A DNA stretch of 50,749 bases from an uncultured Candidatus Saccharibacteria bacterium (lineage in GTDB: Bacteria > Patescibacteriota > Minisyncoccia > Phycocordibacterales > UBA9973), in NCBI GenBank assembly GCA_964484865.1, contig CAZAFG010000002.1:1-50749 (forward strand), read 5' to 3'. Positions 12,959 to 50,749 of the stretch are shown one piece after another. Under the pieces are notes generated by a model, which made no database searches, had not been told where the DNA came from, and worked only from the letters and a program-made list of their open reading frames with translations. Position numbers and translations under genes: made by a program. Each line of letters starts with the position of its first letter. Position 1 is the first letter of the stretch.

Positions 12959-15547
12959 CTAGTTTGGAGAATTTACTATGCCTCTTGTAATCGGTCCAAA
13001 GAAACCAACAGCTGGTTTAATTTTGCTGGCAATTTGAAACTTAATTAAGGCAGCTTTAGTTAAGGCTCCGAATTTTACAGTTTCATTTCCTGGTGATCCT
13101 GCACCTGTTGTAGCTACAGGAAAACCATGAGTATTTAAATATTTTTGTAATTCTTTGATATCAGGATGAGTCATACCTATCTGTAAATCACTTAAGAATT
13201 TTAATAAAGAAGGTGTGCTTGGTTCACCTGAAGCATTGGGGCTTGTAAGGTTACTGCTACCACACAGTTTTCCTGTTAGAGAGTTAAATAATGCCCCACT
13301 AGTGCACGGTGTGGGGACATTTGGATTTAATGACATAGGAGTATTGTTTACTAAATTGTTACGGATAGAATGTGCGGAACTTCCAGAAGTTGTGTGGTGA
13401 ACTGGCTCAAGTTCTCCCTCTTCTTCAATTAAAGAAAAGTTCGCAGTCACAGTTACATCATTCGCCACGCCTACATCAGTACGAGGATTTTGTATAGATA
13501 AATCAGACCAATTAGTAAATTCATAACCAGAATCTGGAACTGCGGTTATAGCTGTACCACTACCTCCTTCATTTATTATCTGTGAGGTATCTCCTGTAAT
13601 TGAACCATTCGCTCCTGCTGAATAAGTTAGTGTATACACATTTGGACAAGGAATTGTAACGGCGCCATTTACAGTACCACTATTAGTGGCCCCAGCATCA
13701 AAACATGCATCCCCAGTAACTGTTCCGTAGTTGATACTGGTATCATAAAAATTAGCATCGCCCGTAAGTGTACCCCCAAAATAAACAGAGTCATTAAAAA
13801 TAGCATCACCTATTAAACTAACTACTTCAAAACCAGCGCCCGTAGCACTTGTTGCGGTCAATCCAGTGAGGCTTGCATCTATTCTGTAGGGTGCAACAAA
13901 AGAATCCGCATTGATGTTTGGAGCGACACTACCTAAAGTTTTTACTCCATTAGTGCCATCAGGTAAACTTGCTGATTGTATTGTATGAGCTTCATCATCC
14001 CACCAATTACCAGCTAGAGTGTTCCACTCATTATCTACGCCGGAGTTATGCCAAAATATATCAGCTTCAACAAAGATACCACCATTTAAAGTTTGAAAAG
14101 TTGTAGTGCCGTCATATTGTGCTCCAATTATATTTACTTCTGCACCATCTGCCACCACAGTCCACGGACCTGTACTTATAAAATCACGAGTAGTCGTAGT
14201 ATTACTAGTATATTTACGAGTTTTAGTGCCACCTACTGTTCCGTTGCTTTCTGTTGAATCACCAACGAAAACAGCATCACCTGAAACCGTTCCGTTATTA
14301 AAACTTGAATCGTTAAAGATAGCATCACCTGTAACAGTACCTTGAATATAGCTTGTATCATTGAATATAGCATCACCTGTGATTATTCCTGCGGCATAAG
14401 CAGAATCGTTAAAGATAGCATCACCTGAGAAATTAAGGTCCACATAATTTCCAATAGAACTATGAAATGTGATTCCCGTAAGAGTAGCATCAAGACTATA
14501 TGGATACACCCAAGTATCTATATCGACATTGGGTCCAACACTACCTAAAGTAATTATAGCGTTGAAGTCAGGCAAGCTTGCTGATTGTATTGTATGAGCT
14601 TCATCATCCCACCAGTTTCCTGTTAGAGTTGACCATTCATTATCCACTCCAGAGTTATACCAATAAAGAGTAGGTGGACATAAACCATAATCAGTTATCG
14701 TCCAGTTAAAATTGTCTATAATACTTTGTCTTTCTGTAGCTGATGCACAATAATAACTAGAACCTGCATCAAAAGCCACATTTGATTGTAAAGCTTGGGC
14801 TGACCATCCAGCAAGAATTGCGTCATAATTAGCAACAGACAAAACCGCACCACCAGCAAACATTGAAGACATATCAGCCACACTTGATACATCCCAAGAA
14901 CTTATGTCTTGATTGAAGGGAGTAGCAAAAAACATAGTATTCATATTGGTTACATTTGATACATCCCAAGAACTTATGTCTTGGTTAAAAGCTACAGCGG
15001 AGTTAAACATACCACTCATGTTAGTTACATTTGATACATCCCAAAAACTTATGTCTGGATTAAAGTAGATAAAAAGAGATCTAAACATATTACTCATGTC
15101 TGTTACACCAGAAAGATCAGGAGAGTCTACCGCGTTTATTCTTAAATTTGTTGCTCCTAAAAATGCATTTGCCATTGAAGTCCATGCGATATTACCCCAT
15201 TGTTCTACTGAAAGTATCTTTCTTCTATCACCTCCGTTGTTAAAGTATATACGAGGAAAATCTCCTGTAATAGATACAGTATAAGTACCAGCAGAAGCAT
15301 AAGTATGGGTTATGCTTCCTGTAACACCAGTGCTGGTACTTGAATCCCCCCAATCAACATTATAGTTATACCCTCCACCTGTGGTAGGAATAGTTATTTG
15401 AGTATTTGTTGAGGTGCCAGCATTATTTGTTCTCCAAGTAGTAATAAACTCCCCAACAGCAAAAACATTTTGGCTTACTAAAAAAAATACAAACACAAAA
15501 ACTCCTAAAAAAATTAGATACTTCAAAGATAACTTTGCTTGCTTCAT
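12959..15547 (-). CDS. giant secreted surface protein: BspA-like/DUF285 repeats, beta-helix-like GDAIFND repeats, Listeria-Bacteroides (InlB B-type) repeat, C-terminal PG-binding domain
   Basis: Start moved from TTG 15550 to ATG 15547 (MKQAKLSLKYLIFLGVFVFVFFLVSQNVFA signal peptide). Repeated ISSWDVSNVTNM..MF units are the DUF285 hallmark. YTLTYSAGANGSITG...PDSGYEFTNWSD is an InlB B-type repeat. The C-terminal IKELQKYLNTHGFPVATTGAGSPGNETVKFGALTKAALIKFQ is PG_binding_1-like. Confidence 0.85.
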   Translation of the reverse strand: MKQAKLSLKYLIFLGVFVFVFFLVSQNVFAVGEFITTWRTNNAGTSTNTQITIPTTGGGYNYNVDWGDSSTSTGVTGSITHTYASAGTYTVSITGDFPRIYFNNGGDRRKILSVEQWGNIAWTSMANAFLGATNLRINAVDSPDLSGVTDMSNMFRSLFIYFNPDISFWDVSNVTNMSGMFNSAVAFNQDISSWDVSNVTNMNTMFFATPFNQDISSWDVSSVADMSSMFAGGAVLSVANYDAILAGWSAQALQSNVAFDAGSSYYCASATERQSIIDNFNWTITDYGLCPPTLYWYNSGVDNEWSTLTGNWWDDEAHTIQSASLPDFNAIITLGSVGPNVDIDTWVYPYSLDATLTGITFHSSIGNYVDLNFSGDAIFNDSAYAAGIITGDAIFNDTSYIQGTVTGDAIFNDSSFNNGTVSGDAVFVGDSTESNGTVGGTKTRKYTSNTTTTRDFISTGPWTVVADGAEVNIIGAQYDGTTTFQTLNGGIFVEADIFWHNSGVDNEWNTLAGNWWDDEAHTIQSASLPDGTNGVKTLGSVAPNINADSFVAPYRIDASLTGLTATSATGAGFEVVSLIGDAIFNDSVYFGGTLTGDANFYDTSINYGTVTGDACFDAGATNSGTVNGAVTIPCPNVYTLTYSAGANGSITGDTSQIINEGGSGTAITAVPDSGYEFTNWSDLSIQNPRTDVGVANDVTVTANFSLIEEEGELEPVHHTTSGSSAHSIRNNLVNNTPMSLNPNVPTPCTSGALFNSLTGKLCGSSNLTSPNASGEPSTPSLLKFLSDLQIGMTHPDIKELQKYLNTHGFPVATTGAGSPGNETVKFGALTKAALIKFQIASKIKPAVGFFGPITRGIVNSPN
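13968..14614 (-). repeat. internal 609-bp-spaced duplication within the surface protein gene
   Basis: A 38-bp perfect direct repeat, cttgctgattgtattgtatgagcttcatcatcccacca, occurs at 13968-14005 and 14577-14614. Flanking sequence is also similar. It encodes W(Y/H)NSGVDNEW.TL.GNWWDDEAHTIQSASLPD twice. Confidence 0.9.
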
Positions 15548-15555
15548 CAAGCCTA

Positions 15556-15564
15556 ATTATAGCA
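15556..15564 (-). promoter_or_regulatory. extended -10 promoter TGCTATAAT, 8 nt upstream of the ATG at 15547
   Basis: Minus strand reads TGC TATAAT TAGGCTTG ATG. Confidence 0.55.
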
Positions 15565-15571
15565 GACTTCT

Positions 15572-17542
15572 TTAGTTTCCATCATTCATCACTGCCCTAG
15601 TTATAGGACCCACAATACCATCGGATACTAAGTTCTTTAATTTTTGAAAAGTCATTACAGACCCTTTTGTTTTTGGTCCAAACATACCATCAGAAGTAAT
15701 TTGAAGTTTATTTTGAAGACATTTTACTTCCTCACCAGTGCTACCTTGTTTTAAAGTTTGAGTAAGCAAGCAAATTGGTGCTGAAGGAGTTGGCGTAGGG
15801 ACTGGAGGGCATTTTGCTCCCGTCTTTGGACTATATATATATGAAGCAGTACAACCGTCAGTATTTGTACTTGATACATCTGAACTAGTTACAACTTTAT
15901 TACTTGATCTTCGTGAACCAGAAGAAGAGCCCCCAGAAGATTCTTCCTCAATTGTAAACGCTGTCACTGCTAAAACATTGGAATCATTGTCTGCAGCATC
16001 AGTGACTGTAATTGTACAATCAGTATAAGTTCCCAATGCTAGTGTTTCAAGAGAAATTGTATTAGCACCAATGCTCGCTGTTGTGGTGAGACTAGTGCAA
16101 CTTCCTCCATAAGTAATATCTCCAGCTTCGTCAGTGGTGAAAGTATAGTCAGGAGTAGTGTCAGTAGTAGGAGTGGTTACAGGTATAGTCTCAGAAATTA
16201 CCGGACCTGTCGCATCAATAGTTGTAAAATTCCAAGTTGTTTCATCTAGAATTCCTGCAAAAGAATTTCCTGATGTATCATCAAAAGCTGTGGCATCGAT
16301 TTGGATATAATAGTCTGTTCCTTCAGCTAAGTTTGAAGTTGGATTTACTGTAATCGTTGTAGTACCTGTTCCTGTAATAAGTCCTCCTGTTACATCAATT
16401 GCTTCTACGACGGAATCATCTGAAGATTTATAAATTGAAATATTACCTGTTTCTACATCCACCGCTTCATCAAAAGTAATCACTAAGTTTGAAGCCACTA
16501 CGACATCTGTTGCTCCATCTGTGGGAGATAATGTATCTATTGTAGGATCTGTGGTGTCAGTTATCACAAGTTTATATAAAGACAAATATGGAGAAGTATA
16601 GTGTGTTGCAGCCATATAATTTCCACTCCAAGATACGCTAGTACCAAGCCCGGGTAATGCAGTAGGATTGGCAAGTTTATTTAAAGTTTCTCCTACTTTT
16701 TGATAAAGAGAGAGAGTGGTAGAGAAAGGTGCAGCTGGTAAATAATCTCCATTCCAGGCAACACTCGAACCATATCCACTAAGAGCAGTTGGGTCAGCTA
16801 ATTTTGTTAAAGCATCACCTTCTCTTTTGTAAAAAGAAACGAATGGAGTAGTTGCTTGTGATGTAGCTAAGTAATCTCCATTCCAAGAAACACTGGTCCC
16901 TGTCCCAGAAAGTGCCGTTGGATTTGTAAGTTTAGTTAAAGCATCACCTTCTCTTTTATAAAATGATAAAAAGGGAGTTGTATTGTGTGCTACTGCAAGA
17001 TAGTCTGTACTCCAGGCAACACCATTACCTTGAGCCGCAGTTGCTGTTGGATCAGCTAATTTAGTTAATGTGTCACCTTCTCTTTTATAAAATGATAAAA
17101 AGGGAGTTGTAGAGTGACCAACAGCCAAATAATCTCCATTCCAGTCAACAGCACGACCAGTGCCTGCTAGCGCTGTTGGATCAGCTAATTTAGTCAATGT
17201 GTCACCTTCTCGTTTATAAAATGATAAAAACGGAGTTGTAAAATGGGATACAGCCAAATAATCTCCATTCCAGGATACACCTAAAACTTGGCCTGCAGTT
17301 GCTGTTGGATTTGTAAGTTTAGTTAAAGCATCACCTTCTCTTTTATAAAATGATAAAAAAGGAGTTGTAGCGTGCCCCACAGCTAAATAATCTCCATTCC
17401 AATCAGATGCAAAGCCATTTCCAGCAAGTGCGGTGGGTGCTGCTTGAAATTGTAAATCTACTGTATCAGCAAAAGAAACTACTGGAAAGTTCATCCCCAT
17501 AAAGACTATAAAAATTAGTACAGAAAAAATTCTTTTTGACAT
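15572..17542 (-). CDS. secreted surface protein: seven 43-aa propeller-like repeats, Ig-like domains, C-terminal PG-binding domain
   Basis: Start moved from TTG 17545 to ATG 17542 (MSKRIFSVLIFIVFMGMNFPVVSFA signal peptide). Seven WNGDYLAV.H.TTPFLSFYKREGD.LTKL..PTA units. An Ig-like module reads NISIYKSSDDSVVEAIDV...YYIQIDATAFDDTSGNSFAGI.DETTWNFTT. The C-terminus LKQGSTGEEVKCLQNKLQITSDGMFGPKTKGSVMTFQ is PG_binding_1-like. Confidence 0.85.
   Translation of the reverse strand: MSKRIFSVLIFIVFMGMNFPVVSFADTVDLQFQAAPTALAGNGFASDWNGDYLAVGHATTPFLSFYKREGDALTKLTNPTATAGQVLGVSWNGDYLAVSHFTTPFLSFYKREGDTLTKLADPTALAGTGRAVDWNGDYLAVGHSTTPFLSFYKREGDTLTKLADPTATAAQGNGVAWSTDYLAVAHNTTPFLSFYKREGDALTKLTNPTALSGTGTSVSWNGDYLATSQATTPFVSFYKREGDALTKLADPTALSGYGSSVAWNGDYLPAAPFSTTLSLYQKVGETLNKLANPTALPGLGTSVSWSGNYMAATHYTSPYLSLYKLVITDTTDPTIDTLSPTDGATDVVVASNLVITFDEAVDVETGNISIYKSSDDSVVEAIDVTGGLITGTGTTTITVNPTSNLAEGTDYYIQIDATAFDDTSGNSFAGILDETTWNFTTIDATGPVISETIPVTTPTTDTTPDYTFTTDEAGDITYGGSCTSLTTTASIGANTISLETLALGTYTDCTITVTDAADNDSNVLAVTAFTIEEESSGGSSSGSRRSSNKVVTSSDVSSTNTDGCTASYIYSPKTGAKCPPVPTPTPSAPICLLTQTLKQGSTGEEVKCLQNKLQITSDGMFGPKTKGSVMTFQKLKNLVSDGIVGPITRAVMNDGN
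16565..17437 (-). repeat. seven tandem 129-bp (43-aa) coding repeats
   Basis: Trp positions fall at aa 49, 92, 135, 178, 221, 264 and 306, a period of 43. The DNA block tcaccttctcttttataaaatgataaaaagggagttgt recurs exactly 129 bp apart (for example 16944 and 17073), with near copies at about 17203 and 17333. Confidence 0.9.
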
Positions 17543-17548
17543 CAAATT

Positions 17549-17557
17549 ATTATATCA
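17549..17557 (-). promoter_or_regulatory. extended -10 promoter TGATATAAT, 6 nt upstream of the ATG at 17542
   Basis: Minus strand reads TGA TATAAT AATTTG ATG. Confidence 0.55.
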
Positions 17558-17559
17558 AA

Positions 17560-20500
17560 TTAATCTCCATTCAACACATCTCTTGTCATTGGCCCTACCA
17601 CAGCATCAGGCTTTAGCTCATGAGTGCTTTGGAACTTCTTGAGCGCTTGGATGGTAAGATTGCCGAATTTATTAGTTTCATTACCTAGTGAACCAATGCC
17701 ACTTGTGGCTAGTGGAAAACCATGAGTATTTAAATACTTTTGAAGTTCTTTCACCTCGACATCAACCATGGGTGCCCAGAGATTTTTTGTGAAAATAAAT
17801 TTATTTGGATTTGGATTATTATGAATTTCAAAATTACTTGTTCCACATGGTGCTCCAGTTAAATTGCTAAATAGTGCTCCACTTGTGCATGGTGCTAGAG
17901 AGTTTATTGGAATAACTACTGAAATATTTTGTGGTTTTAATACTCTTCGAGTGGACCCAGAAGAAGAACGAGCTTGTACTTCCGGCTCAGCTTCTTCTAC
18001 TACTCTATTAAAATAAACAACAAAAACATCGTATGAATTGTTTGTATCGTCAGACACTAATCCTTCCACACCTCCATTACTAAAATCAAAAGAAATATAT
18101 TGATTATCTTCTGAAATTGACGGACGGGATTGTACTTGATTACTATTAGAAATTTGATTACCATCGTCATCAACAGAAACTCTAACTACGGTTTCCGTAT
18201 CTCTATCATATAAGAACACATCTATCAGAGCATTTGTGTCATTATCTACTAAGTTAGTCGCTTGGGAAGAATAAGCGATATACCTACCATCTGAAGATAT
18301 TGTTGGGTAATATGATTGAGTGTCTCCTTCTGAGCCTTCATTGTCAACTGATATACGAGTAGTTGTGCCCAAAGTTATATCACGAATAAAAATATCTTCT
18401 GACCCATTGGTATCACCTGACACTAAATTTGAAGCTTCTGACCTAAATACTACAAAATTACCGTCAGCAGAAATAATGGGATCTGTAGAAGTACTATCTC
18501 CTTCAACTTCACTAGAGTCTACTGATATACGCATAGTTGTCCCGAGTTCAATATCGCGAAGAAAAACATCCCTAGATCCATTTGTATCTCCTGCTATCAA
18601 ATTTGTCGAGGTTGAAGAAAAAACAACTAAATTATTATCAGAAGGCATAGATTGAATATCTCCATCGGAACCATTATCTCCTTCTACTTCATCTGAGGAA
18701 ACAGATATACGAGTAGTAGTGCCTAGAGCTATATCACGCATGAAGATATCAGCACTGCCATTTGTATCACCAGCAACTAAATTTGCCGCATCTGATACAA
18801 AAGTAATAAAATTTCCATCCGAAGATATATAAGGACTATATGAATCACTATCTCCCTCAACTTCATTACTATCTACAGATATTCGTGAAGTTGCTCCTAA
18901 AGCAATGTCGCGAAGAAAAACATCTTGAAATCCATTTGTGTCACCTGCAACTAAATTCGTTGCATAAGAAGTAAAAACAACATAGTTTCCATTAGCTGAG
19001 ATTATTGGATATCCTGAACTTCCATTTCCCTCAGCTTCTGCACTACTTACTGATATTCGCTCAATAGTATCGGTATCCCTATCATAGACAAAAATATCTT
19101 GCTCATTATTAGTATCACTTGCTACTAAATTAGTAGCATATGATTGGAAAGCAACATATCTACCAGCAGAAGATATTGAACTATAATTCGAATCAGAATC
19201 CCCCTCTACTCCCAGATCAGATATAGAAACTCTCTCAATTCCATCATGTACAGATGAACCAATTGTAAAATTCCAAGTTGTCGTATCTGCAATTCCAGCA
19301 AAAGAGTTTCCAGAATTATCTTCAAAAGCTCCAGCATCTATTTGTACATAATAAGCAGTTGCTAAACCTAAATTAGAACTAGGATTAATCGTTACATCTG
19401 TACCACTAACTTCTACTAAGCCACCGTCTGTAACATCTATCGTCTGTACGATAGAGTTATCAGAAGATTTTTTAATTAAAATATTACCAACTCCAGCAAC
19501 TACATTTTCATTAAAAGTTATAAGTAAATTACTATTAGCTGAGACACCTTCTGCGCCATCTGTAGGTGTTAAGGTACTTACAGTGGGAGGAGTTCCATCT
19601 GTTGTAAAATTCCAAGTTGTCGTATCTGCAATTCCAACAAAAGAGTTTCCAAATAAATCATCAAAGGCAGTTGCATCTATTTGCACATAATAAGAAATAC
19701 CAGGTTCTAAATCAGAACTCGGATTTATTTGAAAAGTAGTTTGACCTCCAAGTATTACTTGTCCACTTTCTACATCTATAGCTTCAACGACAGAATCATC
19801 CGAAGACTTTTTAATTGTAATATTCCCTGTACCAACCTTCATTATTTCACTAAAAGTAATATTTAAATTAGTACTTGGAAGCACATCTACTTGCCCGTCA
19901 GATGGATAAAGGCCTGAAATTGTAGGTATTACAGCATCTATCGCATCATATTTATATACCAACGCATCTGTTGCATCAGTAATCCAAAAAAAGTTATTGT
20001 AATAAGTAATTCCTATAGGAGTGGCATTTCCGCTGGCATTTGTATCAAAACTAAAATTAGTTTTTGTGCCACTAGGATAATACATATATACTTCTCTATT
20101 GATGTCATCGGCAATCCAAAAATAACCATTATAAGAAACTATTCCTTCAGGGCCATTATTGCTATTACTTGATGTATCAAAATGAACCCCTGTGTAAGTA
20201 CCATCAGGGTTGTATCTATAAACTTCTGCATCATTCCAATCAGTAATCCATAAAAAATCATTATAAGTAGCTATTCCTGAAGGTAAATCGCTACCACTTC
20301 CTGCTGTATCAAAAGAAGTCCCAGTATAAGTACCGTCTGGGTTGTATTTATAAACTTCTAAATCTGCATAATCAGTTATCCAAAAAAAATCATTGTAAGC
20401 AGTGATTCCTAGCGGATCATTATTCCCACTACCTGCTGTATCGAAAGAGAAGCTTGCGTATGTACCATCTGGGTTGTACTTATAAACTTCTGCGTCAACG

Positions 20501-20685
20501 CCATCTATTACCCAGAAAAAATTATTATAAGCAGTTATGCCGGTCGGATAATCGTTGCCACTTCCAGAAGTACTAAAAGAAACACCTGTATAATCACCAA
20601 AAGCTGCAAAAGAATTTTTTGGGAAATAAAATCCGACTCCCAATATACCTATCAAAGTCAGTACAAATATGCCTTTCTTAAACAT
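17560..20685 (-). CDS. giant secreted surface protein: N-terminal NHL/YWTD-like propeller, two Ig-like domains, seven-blade PD40/TolB-like propeller, C-terminal PG-binding domain
   Basis: Start moved from TTG 20712 to ATG 20685 (MFKKGIFVLTLIGILGVGFYFPKNSFA signal peptide), because a promoter lies inside the TTG extension. The C-terminus VKELQKYLNTHGFPLATSGIGSLGNETNKFGNLTIQALKKFQ is nearly identical to that of the 12959-15547 gene. Confidence 0.85.
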   Translation of the reverse strand: MFKKGIFVLTLIGILGVGFYFPKNSFAAFGDYTGVSFSTSGSGNDYPTGITAYNNFFWVIDGVDAEVYKYNPDGTYASFSFDTAGSGNNDPLGITAYNDFFWITDYADLEVYKYNPDGTYTGTSFDTAGSGSDLPSGIATYNDFLWITDWNDAEVYRYNPDGTYTGVHFDTSSNSNNGPEGIVSYNGYFWIADDINREVYMYYPSGTKTNFSFDTNASGNATPIGITYYNNFFWITDATDALVYKYDAIDAVIPTISGLYPSDGQVDVLPSTNLNITFSEIMKVGTGNITIKKSSDDSVVEAIDVESGQVILGGQTTFQINPSSDLEPGISYYVQIDATAFDDLFGNSFVGIADTTTWNFTTDGTPPTVSTLTPTDGAEGVSANSNLLITFNENVVAGVGNILIKKSSDNSIVQTIDVTDGGLVEVSGTDVTINPSSNLGLATAYYVQIDAGAFEDNSGNSFAGIADTTTWNFTIGSSVHDGIERVSISDLGVEGDSDSNYSSISSAGRYVAFQSYATNLVASDTNNEQDIFVYDRDTDTIERISVSSAEAEGNGSSGYPIISANGNYVVFTSYATNLVAGDTNGFQDVFLRDIALGATSRISVDSNEVEGDSDSYSPYISSDGNFITFVSDAANLVAGDTNGSADIFMRDIALGTTTRISVSSDEVEGDNGSDGDIQSMPSDNNLVVFSSTSTNLIAGDTNGSRDVFLRDIELGTTMRISVDSSEVEGDSTSTDPIISADGNFVVFRSEASNLVSGDTNGSEDIFIRDITLGTTTRISVDNEGSEGDTQSYYPTISSDGRYIAYSSQATNLVDNDTNALIDVFLYDRDTETVVRVSVDDDGNQISNSNQVQSRPSISEDNQYISFDFSNGGVEGLVSDDTNNSYDVFVVYFNRVVEEAEPEVQARSSSGSTRRVLKPQNISVVIPINSLAPCTSGALFSNLTGAPCGTSNFEIHNNPNPNKFIFTKNLWAPMVDVEVKELQKYLNTHGFPLATSGIGSLGNETNKFGNLTIQALKKFQSTHELKPDAVVGPMTRDVLNGD
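18034..19236 (-). repeat. seven roughly 57-aa coding repeats (PD40/TolB-like propeller blades)
   Basis: Units take the form .R(I/V)SV.S.E.EGD..S..P.IS.DG.(F/Y)V.F.S.A.NLV.GDTNG..D(I/V)F(L/I)RD...G.T, repeated seven times. Borders are approximate. Confidence 0.75.
19945..20595 (-). repeat. five 44-aa coding repeats (NHL/YWTD-like blades)
   Basis: P.GIT.YN.FFWITD..D.EVYKYNPDGTY.G.SFDT. Trp falls at aa 67, 111, 155, 199 and 243 in track ORF numbering, a period of 44. Confidence 0.75.
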
Positions 20686-20691
20686 GAGGAT

Positions 20692-20700
20692 ATTATAACA
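20692..20700 (-). promoter_or_regulatory. extended -10 promoter TGTTATAAT, 6 nt upstream of the ATG at 20685
   Basis: Minus strand reads TGT TATAAT ATCCTC ATG. Confidence 0.55.
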
Positions 20701-20714
20701 AAAAAAACCCAAAA

Positions 20715-20939
20715 TTACACCAATTTCTTGAGTTCTTCCTTGTATTTCTCCATTACCTGCATGCCGGCTTGCATTTGATCCATACCCGCTTTGGTTTTCT
20801 CGCCAATCTCTACAGTAATCTTCTTGAAAAGAAGAGGATCCTTCTCCATCATAGTGATAATCATATCTATCTGAGCTTGTGGCACTCCCTGAGTGCGAAG
20901 CATCTTTTTAAGTAAAAAATTTTTAAACATGTCTGACAT
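20715..20939 (-). CDS. hypothetical small Met/Lys-rich protein (74 aa)
   Basis: Intact ATG ORF, tightly packed between a 38-aa ORF (9-nt gap) and the giant surface gene. No family recognised. Confidence 0.55.
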   Translation of the reverse strand: MSDMFKNFLLKKMLRTQGVPQAQIDMIITMMEKDPLLFKKITVEIGEKTKAGMDQMQAGMQVMEKYKEELKKLV

Positions 20940-20948
20940 TATAACTTC

Positions 20949-21065
20949 TTATTCCAGAATTTCAAAATCCTCTTGAGTTCCTTCTGGTGCCTTGTGTTGT
21001 CGTATAAAATAGAGAGCTATACTGCCAACTAAGATCAAGACCACTAGAGAGAGGATATAAATCAT
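20949..21065 (-). CDS. unannotated 38-aa single-TM micro-protein (MIYILSLVVLILVGSIALYFIRQHKAPEGTQEDFEILE)
   Basis: Below the ORF-track length cutoff. It has a perfect TGGTATAAT-6-ATG leaderless promoter architecture. A hydrophobic helix is followed by an acidic tail. Its stop lies 9 nt before the 74-aa ORF. Confidence 0.45.
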   Translation of the reverse strand: MIYILSLVVLILVGSIALYFIRQHKAPEGTQEDFEILE

Positions 21066-21073
21066 GTTACAAT
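21065..21073 (+). promoter_or_regulatory. extended -10 promoter TGTTACAAT, 6 nt upstream of the kinase ATG (21080)
   Basis: Plus strand reads TGT TACAAT TATACC ATG. Its hexamer overlaps the divergent minus-strand hexamer by 2 bp. Confidence 0.5.
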
Positions 21074-21080
21074 TATACCA
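21072..21080 (-). promoter_or_regulatory. extended -10 promoter TGGTATAAT, 6 nt upstream of the 38-aa ORF ATG (21065)
   Basis: Minus strand reads TGG TATAAT TGTAAC ATG. Confidence 0.5.
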
Positions 21081-47448: not shown

Positions 47449-50400
47449 ATGAATACAAAAATAGTTTTCGCGAAAATTTTGTCTTTCCTGACAATTTTTG
47501 CAATGGTCACCACTATGATGACCGGTTTTGCCGCGTCTGTACGCGCACAAGAAGTAGACGATATAGAACCAGCACAAGAAGTGGTCGAAACACCTACTGT
47601 TGATGATACAGAAGAATCTGACACAGAGGAAGAAGAAACAGTCGAAGAAACTCCTGTAACTGAAATAGAGCCTACAGCTCCAGAAGAAGAAGGAGAAAAG
47701 AAAGAGGAAGTTTCTGAACTTTCAAGAACAGCCCTAACTGTTATAGATGAACCTCAGACCGCTACAATTTCTGCAACCAAGATCCTCTGCCCTTCTGAAG
47801 ATTTACTTCCAGACTGGGGTAACTATGGAGATGATATTACTTCTACTACTGCTGCTGAATTTTTAAATGCAGAAGGTAATGAATCATGTGAAGAAGTAGA
47901 TTGGAATTTTGAATGGTCTATCGGTGCTGCTTATGTAGATGACAATACTCTAACTGGTGGAGAAGGCTGGACTACATTTGAAAACGGCATGACGCCTGTT
48001 CCAGCAGGACAAAATATCGGACTACGAGAACAAATGCTTCCTGGTTACACTACTTTCACAGGACAAAATGTTGATCAAAATGAATCAGCAGAATTTTACT
48101 GCGGAAGTGATGTATTGAATTATGACAACTTAGAATATGTAAATACTGTAGCTGGTGAAACTTATCACTGTGTAGCTTTCAACGCTCACCCTGATATGTG
48201 TCCTAATGATGATGGTATTCAAACAGTAGAACGATGTTCTATTCCTGAACCTGAAGAAGATATGTGTAACGAAGGAGACCAAAATGGTTGGGATGTAGAT
48301 TACTACAACTACACTCAATACGACACAGGAATGAACTTACCAGTTCAAGATTGGTACAAGAAATCTACTTATGGAAATCCACTAAGTGCTGATAACACTT
48401 TCTCAACCAATGCTGACGCATGGACTGGATGGTCTTATGGAAACGACAAGTACAAATTTAGCCAAGTTGAATCTGATTTAATGTTTGGTGCTAATAATTT
48501 CTTCCCATTTGATTCTGGTACAGGCTTACCTTACTCAAATGAATCTCTAGTATTCACAGGCGTTGGAGTAAATAATGTCTACACTTATGTAGAAGGCCCA
48601 AGTGGTACAGACTATCACTTTGGTTTACATGCTACAGGATATGTAGATGCCCCAGCTGCAGGAAATTACGCTTTCACTCTTACTTCTGATGACGATGTAT
48701 GGGTTTATGTTGATGGCGTATTAGTTGTAGACAATTCTGGAGTACACGGTGTACCTGGAACTGTAACTGACGGAGATATCTACCTTGATGAAGGTGTAAA
48801 TAAAGTTGAATTATTCTATGCAGAACGACACGGCAAACAAGCTGCATTGAATTTCGAATTTACAGACTCAACTCTAGAAATAAGTGCTTACGAAGATTGC
48901 GAATGTGAGAACACTGAAGAAGTTACTGAAGTATATTACTCAAACGGTGAAACTTATGTAGGAGAAGGCAATCAACTATCTTCTGTACTTAGCTTTGTTC
49001 ACAGTGCATGGATAAATATCTCTGGTGCATCTTGGATATGGAATATAGACGGAGTAGACACTTCAACTACAGTTTCAGAAACACAAACTTTCAGAAAAGA
49101 AATTATAATTGATGGCACACCCACTGGAGCTACTCTTGAAATCGCTGCAGACAATAGTTACGCTGTTTATGTAAACGGGGACGAACTAGTTGGTTGTGCA
49201 AATTCTAGTGAGTTTAACTATGGAATAGTAGCAACATGTGAAATCCCAGCGGAAATGCTAGTAACTGGAGAAAATGATATCTCTATAAATGTTACTAATT
49301 TATATGTAGAAAACTCAACTCCTACTTCAAACCCTGCAGGATTACTCTACAAATTAACTGTAAATTCTATCGAATGTGCAGATGATGAAGACGAAGAAGT
49401 ATGTCCTTGGAATGATGAAATATCAGCAAATGATGAAAACTGCAAAGAACCTGAGCAACTAGTTTGTAATCCAGAAGTAAACCTTGTTCAAAATGGTGGT
49501 TTCGAAAACCCTGTACTTGATTCTGGTACTTGGGGTCTATTCCCAGAAGGAGATCTACTAGGATGGCTTATAGATTGGATTTACGATTCTGAAGGAACAC
49601 CAACTCTTGAAATCCAAAACAATGTAGCAGGTGCTCCCTATCAAGGAGAACAACATGCAGAACTAGATGGAAATCATCCAGTAGGCATGTATCAAGTTAT
49701 TGAAACTATCCCTGGCGAAACTTATGACTTCTCTTACTCTTACTCTGCTCGCCCAGGACGAGACGCTGAAGACAATAGAATCTGGGCTCGAGTTGATAAC
49801 AATGCAGATGCAACACTATACAGTGCTGATCATGCTATAGATGCTACTTATGCTACTGATACAATTTGGACTACATACTCAACAAGCTTCGTAGCTGACT
49901 CTGAAACTACTATCATGTTTAACGACATGGGTACAGATACTAGTTATGGTGGTTACATCGATGGAGTTTCCCTAACTTGCGATCCTGAGCCTGTAGTAGA
50001 AATGTGTACTGACTCAGAAGCAAACAATGAAGGCATGCCATTGCCGTGTACTTACGATCCAGAACCGACAGTTGGAAATATCGTAATCGACAAATACATC
50101 TGCCCTGCTGATACTGTGATACTACGAAGTGAAAACGGCATCGGTGAAGGTATGGAAGTACCTGAGGGTTGTGTACCACAATCTGGTGCAACATTTGGAA
50201 TAGTACACGGTGAACAAACTGATGCAAACGGTCCTTACCCTGAACTTTCAGCTCCTATTGATGACCTTGAAGTTTCAAATGGTGGAGGTATAGCAACTTT
50301 TGCTGAACTTTCCCCTGCTGGACGATACTTGGTAGTAGAAACTGATGCTGAAGGCAATAAACTTGCTCACGACGCTATCCTAGGTCTTTTCTGTGAAGGA

Positions 50401-50749
50401 GATGGCGACCAATCAGACAGCAACGACAACCAAGAACTTACTTTTGTAACTGCTGGTGAAAACTCAAACTGTGTAGCTTACAATAAGATGCCAGTTGATG
50501 ATACTGATCCTATGTGTTACGAAGGAGAAGTTTACAACTCCGAATTAGGAGAATGTGTTCCTGCAGATAACGGAGGAAACGACGAACCTACTCCACAAAA
50601 ACATTCTTCTTCTGGTAGTCGAGTTGGTGGCGGACAAGGTGGTGAAGGAGAAGTCTTGGGTGCTACTACTGATGTATGTGAATTCTCAATCGATACATAC
50701 ATGAGAAAGGGCTACAAGAACGATACTGCGCAAGTAAAGGTAATGCAGA
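47449..50749 (+). CDS. giant secreted multidomain protein: PA14/fibro-slime domain, CBM-like domains, start of a PG-binding C-terminus; 3' end truncated by window edge
   Basis: Not in the ORF track because it is edge-truncated. I translated frame 1 from the ATG at 47449 to the end (1100 codons) with no stop. Signal peptide [33 protein letters not shown]. PA14/fibro-slime motif: NNFFPFD...[45 protein letters not shown]...[10 protein letters not shown]. DUF642-like segment: [11 protein letters not shown]...GW...EIQ...ELDG...[10 protein letters not shown]. Confidence 0.85.
   Translation, partial: [1100 protein letters not shown]

What the first reader, a model, noticed from the sequence alone, without database searches (positions are those of the whole stretch)
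12959..20685. Three consecutive giant secreted repeat proteins built from shuffled modules and one shared C-terminal anchoring cassette
Three genes (862, 656 and 1041 aa) each have their own leaderless promoter and signal peptide. All three end in the same ordered cassette:
- A Ser-rich SSGS(x)R-type linker (TTSGSSAHSIR / SSGGSSSGSRR / RSSSGSTRR).
- A short Cys loop, C-x3-(F/Y)-(S/N)-x2-TG-x2-C (CTSGALFNSLTGKLC / CTASYIYSPKTGAKC / CTSGALFSNLTGAPC).
- A PG_binding_1-like domain. ...KELQKYLNTHGFP(V/L)AT(T/S)G.GS.GNET.KFG.LT..AL.KFQ is nearly identical in genes 1 and 3.

Genes 2 and 3 also share an Ig-like module (N(I)(S/T)I(Y/K)KSSDDSVVEAIDV...YY(I/V)QIDATAFDD..GNSF.GI.D.TTWNFTT). A fourth protein at 47449 shows the same SSSGSR / GEVLGA / PG-binding onset before the window ends.

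**Inference.** This is a family of cell-wall-tethered surface receptors or adhesins diversified by domain shuffling. The Cys loop plus linker may be an undescribed sorting or processing element.
Basis: partly seen in the sequence, partly recalled or inferred. Interest (0 to 1): 0.62.

Follow-up and report, generated by a model that had tools for sequence, protein, structure and literature searches.

The report
Wall-anchored surface proteins, uncatalogued Cys-loop tail
Three neighbouring genes of a tiny, probably host-dependent (Paceibacteria/CPR) bacterium encode large exported, adhesin-like proteins that most likely clip onto the cell's own wall through a shared tail, and that tail includes a small two-cysteine loop no domain library names, although the overall design is a familiar one.

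Summary
Three same-strand (minus) genes of 862, 656 and 1041 aa each have a Sec-type signal peptide and a TATAAT box 6-8 nt before the ATG. Each ends in the same ordered tail:
- a Ser-rich S-G-S-x-R junction;
- a 15-residue C-x13-C loop;
- PG_binding_1.

Pfam confirms DUF285/PARCEL, Big_5, PD40, Flg_new_2 and PG_binding_1.

These are best read as non-covalently peptidoglycan-tethered surface adhesins of a 632-kb Paceibacteria genome. Modules are exchanged among paralogs: gene 3's passenger and tail have different nearest relatives.

The "sorting/processing element" idea is not supported.
- The loop is a tandemly repeatable mini-module (1-18 copies).
- It sits about 19 aa from PG_binding_1, whether that domain is C- or N-terminal.
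- No sortase was found.
- Two VKOR genes could form the disulfide.
- No Pfam or NCBIfam model covers the loop.

The full junction + single loop + PGB cassette is a distinct sub-architecture. The junction is present in 18 of 27 single-loop representatives and 0 of 61 multi-loop ones. Related contigs carry tandem arrays of 3-6 such genes.

PGB-bearing extracellular proteins of Paceibacteria are already published, and this scan has met the loop before. Interest is moderate to low.

The parts
17560..20685 (-). Gene 3, 1041 aa. Order: signal peptide, beta-propeller-like repeats, 2x Big_5, PD40 propeller repeats, tail cassette.
20692..20697 (-). TATAAT box 6 nt upstream of the gene 3 ATG (leaderless-type promoter candidate)
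20605..20685 (-). Gene 3 signal peptide (MFKKGIFVLTLIGILGVGFYFPKNSFA|A), read from the sequence
   Evidence: inference, no predictor was run
19264..19935 (-). Gene 3, two Big_5 Ig-like modules, paralogous to the gene 2 module
   Evidence: (D3)
18013..19245 (-). Gene 3 PD40-type propeller repeat region
   Evidence: D2
17944..17967 (-). Gene 3 junction SSSGSTRR
17845..17889 (-). Gene 3 Cys loop CTSGALFSNLTGAPC
17572..17757 (-). Gene 3 PG_binding_1 domain, the 'LQKYLNTHGF...GNET' subtype with a 14-residue insertion
15572..17542 (-). Gene 2, 656 aa. Order: signal peptide, seven 43-aa propeller blades, Big_5, tail cassette.
   Evidence: D1
17549..17554 (-). TATAAT box 6 nt upstream of the gene 2 ATG. 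It lies in the 17-nt gap after the gene 3 stop codon.
16220..16558 (-). Gene 2 Big_5 Ig-like module
15908..15928 (-). Gene 2 junction SSSGSRR
15809..15853 (-). Gene 2 Cys loop CTASYIYSPKTGAKC
15587..15733 (-). Gene 2 PG_binding_1 domain (short, canonical subtype)
12959..15547 (-). Gene 1, 862 aa. Order: signal peptide, PKD-like segment (below cut-off), DUF285/PARCEL, duplicated ~200-aa unit with 16-aa GDAxFxD repeats, Flg_new_2, tail cassette.
   Evidence: D5-D7
15556..15561 (-). TATAAT box 8 nt upstream of the gene 1 ATG
14849..15181 (-). Gene 1 DUF285 / PARCEL repeat region
13361..13393 (-). Gene 1 degenerate junction TTSGSSAHSIR
13262..13306 (-). Gene 1 Cys loop CTSGALFNSLTGKLC
13019..13171 (-). 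Gene 1 PG_binding_1 domain (insertion subtype, 80% DNA identity to gene 3 over 89 nt)
   Evidence: D8
47449..50748 (+). Fourth family member, cut by the contig end. It has PA14 and a CBM_4_9/choice-of-anchor-C-like domain, then SSSGSR (50605-50622), GEVLGA and the PGB onset. It has no Cys loop.

Best explanation
Genes 1-3, and the truncated fourth gene, are paralogous, Sec-exported, adhesin-like surface proteins of a small-genome Paceibacteria (CPR) bacterium.

Proposed mechanism:
1. Each gene is probably transcribed from its own leaderless-type promoter (inferred).
2. The protein is exported by Sec and the signal peptide is cut at an AxA-like site (inferred from sequence).
3. The C-terminal PG_binding_1 three-helix domain binds the cell's own peptidoglycan non-covalently and retains the protein. 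The domain identity is shown; binding is inferred from the family.
4. Just outside the anchor lies a short stalk. It consists of a disordered Ser-rich S-G-S-x-R hinge, a Pro/Val/Ile-rich segment, and one 15-residue hairpin. The hairpin is probably stapled by a disulfide; VKOR homologs are present, so a disulfide is inferred.
5. The Cys loop is not a signal. It is a small repeatable module that accompanies PG_binding_1 throughout this lineage, most likely as a rigid spacer and/or a second weak wall contact.
6. The variable N-terminal passengers (beta-propellers, Big_5 Ig-like, PD40, PARCEL/DUF285, InlB-B-repeat-like, PA14/CBM) project outward and bind ligands on host cells or surfaces.
7. The family diversifies by duplication in tandem arrays and by exchange of passenger and tail modules between paralogs.
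For: - Domains are above curated cut-offs.
- The PGB part matches solved PG-binding domains by sequence (1LBU 4.6e-7, phiKZ gp144, SleB). It also matches by fold (SleB N-terminal domain, TM 0.76 on target, rmsd 2.3 A).
- In the AF2 models the PGB has pLDDT 80-96, the junction <50, and the loop 50-70 as a beta-bridged hairpin.
- All 9 PG_binding_1 ORFs of the genome have a signal-peptide/TM-type hydrophobic N-terminus, or are cut at their N-terminus.
- The genome has 3 PBP transpeptidase domains and a Mur ligase. It has 2 VKOR genes and no sortase above cut-off.
- 33 foreign proteins carry the same PGB subtype on many passenger architectures. Of these, 8 have the full cassette.
- Tandem arrays exist in L020 and L021, with the cassette and TAYAAT-N6-ATG starts.
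- A profile of junction plus loop only finds 166 representatives. Of 145 examined, 141 have loops, 114 have 2 or more, and 94 have a PGB. The nearest loop lies a median 19 aa from the PGB on either side.
- The junction precedes the loop in 18 of 27 single-loop proteins and 0 of 61 multi-loop proteins.
- Gene 3's passenger is closest to L020_8067 (69% over 552 aa). Its tail is closest to L021_6007, P0004 and L020_2999 (64-68%), and L020_8067's tail is not in its top six.
- Published precedent: highly expressed extracellular PGBD/Ig-like/PKD proteins occur in Paceibacteria parasitising methanogens (PMC10936435).
Against: - There is no expression, localisation or binding data.
- Signal peptides were judged by eye only.
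- PG_binding_1 could in principle bind host peptidoglycan instead of the cell's own.
- The loop's fold is only moderately confident, and its ligand, if any, is unknown.
- A role for the conserved S-G-S-x-R junction has not been tested.
- Only one Mur ligase hit was found in a 94%-complete assembly.
Confidence: 0.72

Rival explanations
1. The PG_binding_1 tail (with the loop) targets the HOST's cell wall, not the cell's own. The proteins would then be released host-binding or host-attacking factors rather than tethered adhesins.
For: - PMC10936435 proposes that PGBD proteins of Paceibacteria take part in host attachment.
- After signal-peptide cleavage no other anchor is evident.
- The genome also has an M23 peptidase with a C-terminal PGB.
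Against: - No catalytic domain lies in genes 1-3. The Vgb_lyase hit is below cut-off and is a propeller fold.
- The passengers are classic binding modules, which would be redundant if the tail were the targeting end.
- The organism makes its own peptidoglycan.
- The hosts reported in PMC10936435 are methanogenic archaea, which by textbook knowledge lack murein. That was not tested here, and it makes self-anchoring the simpler reading.
Confidence: 0.12
2. One reading: the Ser-rich junction and Cys loop form a sorting or processing element. For example, there could be a cleavage or covalent-attachment site recognised by a dedicated enzyme.
For: - The junction is strikingly conserved at the passenger/tail boundary. 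It occurs in 18 of 27 single-loop proteins, 0 of 61 multi-loop proteins and 0 control windows.
- The junction often ends in R or RR and follows an acidic run.
- No curated model explains it.
Against: - The loop occurs in tandem arrays and on either side of the PGB, and in N-terminal positions.
- The element is internal and is followed by a folded domain, unlike known sorting signals.
- No sortase was found.
- The junction is predicted to be disordered.
- The junction motif alone is barely above chance genome-wide.
Confidence: 0.07
3. The proteins are structural envelope (S-layer-type) components, not adhesins.
For: - They are large, secreted, wall-bound, repeat-rich proteins.
- CPR cells are reported to carry S-layers (general knowledge).
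- Another note of this scan (e1-1195147) proposes a PGB-anchored S-layer candidate in this class.
Against: - There are four or more divergent paralogs with unrelated passengers.
- The locus is not syntenic in close relatives.
- No SLH or other S-layer family was hit.
- No expression data are available.
Confidence: 0.05

Closest known systems
Non-covalently wall-bound surface proteins of monoderm bacteria that use PG_binding_1 (PF01471). Solved examples of the domain: Streptomyces albus Zn DD-peptidase (1LBU), SleB N-terminal domain (6TCI), phiKZ gp144.
   Same: The C-terminal domain matches the family by HMM, by sequence to solved structures and by fold. The logic is also the same: a binding or functional passenger plus a non-covalent wall-binding module.
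   Different: - The well-studied examples are mostly wall hydrolases. Here the passengers are non-catalytic binding modules.
- Genes 1, 3 and 4 use a subtype with a 14-residue 'NTHGF..G.GS.GNET' insertion.
- An uncatalogued Cys loop and a conserved S-G-S-x-R junction precede the domain.
Highly expressed extracellular PGBD/Ig-like/PKD proteins of Ca. Yanofskyibacterium and Minisyncoccaceae (Paceibacteria), Kuroda et al. 2024, mBio (PMC10936435)
   Same: They come from the same bacterial class and show the same combination of a secreted protein with a peptidoglycan-binding domain and Ig-like/PKD modules. A role in host attachment is proposed for them.
   Different: That paper does not describe the Cys loop, the junction, tandem arrays or module exchange. 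Direct homology to its proteins was not tested here.
LPXTG/sortase-anchored MSCRAMM-type adhesins of Gram-positive bacteria
   Same: They share the architecture: signal peptide, variable Ig-like or repeat passenger, a low-complexity wall-spanning stalk, then a C-terminal anchor. They also form multigene families that evolve by module shuffling.
   Different: Genes 1-3 have no LPXTG motif, no C-terminal hydrophobic tail and no sortase above cut-off. Anchoring here would be non-covalent.
Cys-loop + PG_binding_1 tails noted earlier in this scan in other Patescibacteria genomes (e1-1020632, e1-1217729, e1-1564591)
   Same: The same C-x13-C loop lies beside PG_binding_1, is uncatalogued, is largely confined to this phylum, and is read as part of a wall anchor. 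My own reproduce this independently.
   Different: - Here the loop is single and is preceded by a Ser-rich S-G-S-x-R junction instead of a poly-Gly hinge.
- The genes form a tandem array with leaderless-type promoters.
- Tail swapping between paralogs is shown here.

Membership tests
PG_binding_1 (PF01471) | HMM score above the Pfam gathering threshold (23 bits) | tested here: met
   27.0, 33.7 and 43.4 bits for genes 1, 2 and 3. The tails alone score 30.6, 37.1 and 46.4.
PG_binding_1 (PF01471) | Three-helix bundle fold like solved PG-binding domains | tested here: met
   The AF2 models show three helices at pLDDT 80-96. Foldseek matches the SleB N-terminal domain 6TCI (TM 0.76 on target, rmsd 2.3 A), CtpB, 5TV7 and YcbB.
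PG_binding_1 (PF01471) | Actual binding to peptidoglycan | not testable with these tools
   This needs a sacculus pull-down with the recombinant tail.
Big_5 bacterial Ig-like domain (PF13205) | HMM score above the gathering threshold (23.6 bits) | tested here: met
   Gene 2 scores 66.1 bits. Gene 3 scores 113.7 bits with two copies.
DUF285 / PARCEL repeat surface proteins (PF03382, TIGR02167) | HMM score above the Pfam threshold (25 bits) | tested here: met
   Gene 1 scores 118.7 bits in Pfam. NCBIfam TIGR02167 gives 28 vs 30 (just below) and Mbov_0838_LP gives 77.8 vs 500 (not a member of that specific lipoprotein family).
PD40 / TolB-like propeller repeat (PF07676) | HMM score above the gathering threshold (20.9 bits) | tested here: met
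   Gene 3 scores 50.8 bits.
Sortase-dependent LPXTG surface proteins | C-terminal LPXTG motif + hydrophobic segment + basic tail, and a sortase in the genome | tested here: not met
   The C-termini are PGB domains ending ...GPITRGIVNSPN...GPITRAVMNDGN and ...GPMTRDVLNGD. The best sortase hit is 16.4 bits against a cut-off of 26.6.
C-terminal sorting signals of the exosortase/archaeosortase/rhombosortase type (PEP-CTERM, PGF-CTERM, GlyGly-CTERM) | Signature motif followed by a terminal TM helix and an Arg-rich end | tested here: not met
   The sequences show no terminal TM helix. The junction and loop are internal and are followed by a 75-110-aa spacer plus folded domain.
Any curated family covering the C-x13-C loop repeat | A Pfam-A or NCBIfam model matching the loop | tested here: not met
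   Nothing matches on the tails. Nothing matches on proteins with 8-12 copies either, apart from sub-threshold Galaxin_repeat at 15-19 bits against a cut-off of 28. No solved relative exists for profile positions 1-60.
S-layer proteins with SLH anchors | SLH domain hit | tested here: not met
   No SLH family appears among the Pfam hits at E<=0.01.

The most novel reading that the evidence does not exclude
The C-x13-C loop is an autonomous, disulfide-stapled recognition mini-domain specific to Patescibacteria. It would bind a wall glycan or secondary polymer and cooperate with PG_binding_1. The conserved acidic-run/S-G-S-x-R junction would be a regulated hinge or proteolytic release site. Together they would define a lineage-specific surface-display system whose tails are swapped among adhesin genes to re-arm the cell surface.
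Probability: 0.15. Interest if true: 0.62.

Novelty: new variant of a known kind. Interest (0 to 1): 0.36.

Why it matters
CPR/Patescibacteria are abundant, mostly uncultured episymbionts, and how they hold on to hosts is largely unknown. This locus gives a concrete, testable set of candidate attachment proteins.

It also sharpens the definition of their anchoring tail. PG_binding_1 is accompanied by an uncatalogued Cys-loop repeat. One sub-family additionally has a conserved Ser-rich junction and a single loop.

A curated model of the loop and of the cassette would improve annotation of surface proteomes in these genomes. It would flag host-facing proteins for expression or binding studies.

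The conceptual gain is modest. Non-covalent wall anchoring, tandem adhesin families and module shuffling are all well known.

Tried and rejected
- Pfam and NCBIfam scans for a model of the junction or loop found none, on the tails or on multi-copy proteins.
- PDB sequence and fold searches for the junction/loop part matched only the PGB.
- The sortase search found nothing above cut-off, which argues against covalent sorting.
- Synteny upstream of ychF in five relatives is not conserved. G148 has a recombinase plus an R-M island there, and G255 has a single 1312-aa PGB-ended protein a few genes away. The array is therefore not a fixed operon.
- Recent gene conversion between paralog modules was rejected, because shared modules are only 76-85% identical at the DNA level.
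- A strict DNA pattern for the loop over 301 class genomes hit almost only this genus. The profile search showed that this under-counts the repeat, whose sequence varies (Y/F, G4 optional).
- Literature searches for a prior description of the loop or of CPR leaderless initiation found nothing specific.


Full report
**What is there.**
The window is the whole of contig C2 of a 632-kb, 60-contig, about 94%-complete genome. An earlier scan note places the genome in Paceibacteria. Named homologs are labelled Candidatus Paceibacterota.

Three consecutive minus-strand ORFs occupy 12959-20712:
- gene 3: 1041 aa from the ATG at 20685
- gene 2: 656 aa from the ATG at 17542
- gene 1: 862 aa from the ATG at 15547

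Each begins with a typical Sec signal peptide (K/R-rich start, hydrophobic core, ...FA|X). This was read from the sequence; no predictor was available.

Pfam hits:
- gene 1: DUF285/PARCEL, Flg_new_2 and PG_binding_1, plus a sub-threshold PKD-like segment
- gene 2: Big_5 and PG_binding_1 behind seven propeller-like 43-aa blades (D1)
- gene 3: a sub-threshold Vgb_lyase-like propeller, two Big_5, PD40 and PG_binding_1

The truncated fourth gene (47449-50748, + strand) has PA14 and a CBM_4_9/choice-of-anchor-C-like domain, then SSSGSR, GEVLGA and the onset of a PGB domain. It has no Cys loop. Contig C3 starts in frame with 'QKYLNTHGFLVAQ...GPVTRGVVNNGL*'. It overlaps the last bases of C2 with one mismatch, so it probably supplies the missing end.

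**The promoter claim.**
The gaps between the genes are only 14-24 nt, yet each ATG is preceded by TATAAT at 6, 6 and 8 nt. Genome-wide, TATAAT peaks sharply at 6 nt from the ATG: 25 ORFs at spacing 6 and 42 at spacings 5-9, against a background of about 1 per position. Only 16 of 472 ORFs have an SD-like motif. The same TAYAAT-N6-ATG layout precedes most members of the homologous arrays on other contigs. 'Own leaderless promoter' is therefore plausible, though untested. A simple consensus promoter scan is uninformative here.

**The tail.**
All three proteins end in the same order of elements:
1. a Ser-rich junction: SSSGSTRR, SSSGSRR, or the degenerate SGSSAHSIR;
2. 20-30 residues rich in Pro/Val/Ile;
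3. a C-x13-C loop: CTSGALFSNLTGAPC, CTASYIYSPKTGAKC or CTSGALFNSLTGKLC;
4. a 15-40-residue spacer;
5. PG_binding_1.

The PGB part matches solved PG-binding domains by sequence (1LBU, phiKZ gp144, SleB). It also matches by fold (SleB N-terminal domain, TM 0.76 on target).

AF2 with 13 sequences gives pLDDT 80-87 for the PGB, <50 for the junction and 50-56 for the loop. With 59 sequences, the PGB rises to 91-96. The loop becomes a beta-bridged hairpin at 60-70, and the spacer stays <50.

Genes 1, 3 and 4 share a PGB subtype with a 14-residue insertion ('NTHGF..A..G.GS.GNET'). Gene 2 has the short canonical form.

**Is the Cys loop a signal?**
No. In this genome the loop is far above chance: 8 loose and 5 strict matches against 0.28 and 0 in shuffles. 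It also occurs just after an N-terminal PGB domain (C16:4254-5351). It occurs twice after a TM helix in a small protein (C16:6523-7179).

In genus relatives it comes in 1-3 tandem copies before C-terminal PGB domains.

A profile of junction plus loop only, with no PGB columns, was searched against 1.84 billion representatives. It found 166 proteins at E<=1e-3. Many matched only the loop positions, in 3-18 stretches. Of the 145 I examined:
- 141 have at least one loop, 114 have two or more, and 36 have four or more.
- 94 have a PGB domain (64 C-terminal, 28 N-terminal).
- The nearest loop lies a median of 19 residues from the PGB on either side.

The consensus is G-C-[TL]-[SP]-G-x-x-[YF]-S-x-T-T-G-x-x-C.

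No Pfam-A or NCBIfam model covers the loop, even in proteins with 8-12 copies. The genome has no sortase above cut-off. It has two VKOR homologs, so an extracytoplasmic disulfide is plausible. The loop is therefore an uncatalogued, repeatable mini-module that accompanies PG_binding_1. It is most simply a stapled spacer and/or an auxiliary wall contact.

**Is the ordered cassette real?**
Yes, as a sub-architecture.
- The S-G-S-x-R junction lies 8-55 residues upstream of the loop in 18 of 27 single-loop representatives. It does so in 0 of 61 multi-loop ones and in 0 control windows. It is often preceded by an acidic run.
- Eight of the 33 foreign proteins found with gene 3's tail carry the full cassette. 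Their passengers range from propellers and PD40 to FN3 and unassigned repeats.
- The short junction motif on its own is only about 2-fold above chance in this genome.
- The junction's function is unknown. Disorder prediction favours a hinge, and processing is not excluded.

**Family dynamics.**
- Related metagenome contigs carry tandem arrays. L020 has six consecutive genes, five of them ending in the cassette. They include clear counterparts of gene 2 (74% passenger, 79% tail) and of gene 3's passenger (69% over 552 aa). L021 has three.
- Gene 3's tail is closest to the tails of other paralogs (L021_6007, P0004, L020_2999 at 64-68%). It is not closest to the tail of its passenger's best match. 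Gene 1's tail is closest to that of a PD40 protein (P0008, 67%), and its passenger has no match in the set. This incongruence supports module exchange.
- Within the window, shared modules are 76-85% identical at the DNA level. The exchanges are therefore not recent.
- The site upstream of ychF differs in every close relative examined.

**Own wall or host wall?**
The genome encodes three PBP transpeptidase domains and a Mur ligase, so a self wall exists. All PGB-bearing ORFs in the genome are exported-type proteins. The passengers of genes 1-3 are binding modules without catalytic domains. Self-anchoring is therefore the economical reading. Binding to a host wall remains a rival at about 0.12.

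**Relation to what is known.**
Kuroda et al. 2024 (PMC10936435) described highly expressed extracellular PGBD/Ig-like/PKD proteins in Paceibacteria and proposed host attachment. Non-covalent wall anchoring by PG_binding_1 is textbook for monoderm surface proteins.

Other agents of this scan have already met the same Cys loop beside PG_binding_1 in other Patescibacteria genomes. My independent searches agree with them. Those notes are leads, not evidence.

New here:
- the single-loop cassette sub-type with its conserved Ser-rich junction;
- its occurrence in tandem, individually promoted gene arrays;
- the passenger/tail incongruence.

**Verdict.**
- Observation: confirmed.
- Interpretation: partly supported. 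Wall-tethered, shuffled adhesins are supported; a sorting or processing element is not.
- Novelty: a new variant of a known kind.
- Interest: moderate to low (0.36).

Noticed in passing
window 50629-50748 and genome contig C3:1-188: The fourth gene runs off the contig inside its PG_binding_1 domain. C3 begins in frame with the matching remainder (QKYLNTHGFLVAQ...VNNGL*), about 85% like gene 1's end. The assembly probably broke on this repeated tail. The 7-8 nt overlap has one mismatch.
   Followed up: partly
whole genome; e.g. window 20692-20697, 17549-17554, 15556-15561: TATAAT peaks 6 nt upstream of ATG genome-wide (25 ORFs at spacing 6). SD-like motifs precede only 16 of 472 ORFs. This indicates predominantly leaderless, SD-free initiation.
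   Followed up: partly
window 20713-21079 (minus strand): Two small ORFs lie upstream of gene 3, each with its own TATAAT-N6/7-ATG. One is a 38-aa single-TM peptide (MIYILSLVVLILVGSIALYF...). The other is a 71-aa helical protein (MFKNFLLKKMLRTQGVPQAQ...).
   Followed up: no
L020:1-2937 and L021:343-3330: In both related arrays the first gene has the same kind of propeller passenger. It ends in a TM segment plus an ~80-aa cytoplasmic tail instead of the PGB cassette, which is an alternative, membrane-anchored version of the family.
   Followed up: no
window 13701-14663 (gene 1): Gene 1 contains an internal duplication of about 200 aa (96 nt at 85% identity, 609 nt apart). It also has runs of 16-residue GDAxFxDxSxxxGTV repeats that suggest a beta-helix. 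No Pfam family covers this region.
   Followed up: no
window 15266-15436 (gene 1 N-terminus): A weak NCBIfam hit to CPR_pilus_PamR (pilus system RbmA-like protein): 26.5 bits against a cut-off of 300. It overlaps the PKD-like segment and is probably just a shared Ig-like fold.
   Followed up: no
relatives G148:C3:20982-36500 (L018), G255:C9 (L015), G214:C2 (L017): The region upstream of ychF is a variable site. G148 carries a serine recombinase and restriction-modification/helicase genes. G255 has a single 1312-aa PGB-ended protein. G214 has a run of other secreted proteins.
   Followed up: partly
genome contigs C16:4254-5351 and C33:2247-4669: Other PGB proteins of this genome put the PGB at the N-terminus, right after the signal peptide. 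One has Cys loops downstream, and two have Kelch-like 'KDFWEYDP..W.QKADFGG' repeats. Parts of these ORFs are masked (runs of N/X).
   Followed up: no
genome C1:28669-29031, C20:8702-9094, C24:7995-8207: This 632-kb genome has three VKOR-family hits, two above cut-off. That is notable investment in extracytoplasmic disulfide formation and fits the many Cys-bracketed surface modules.
   Followed up: no
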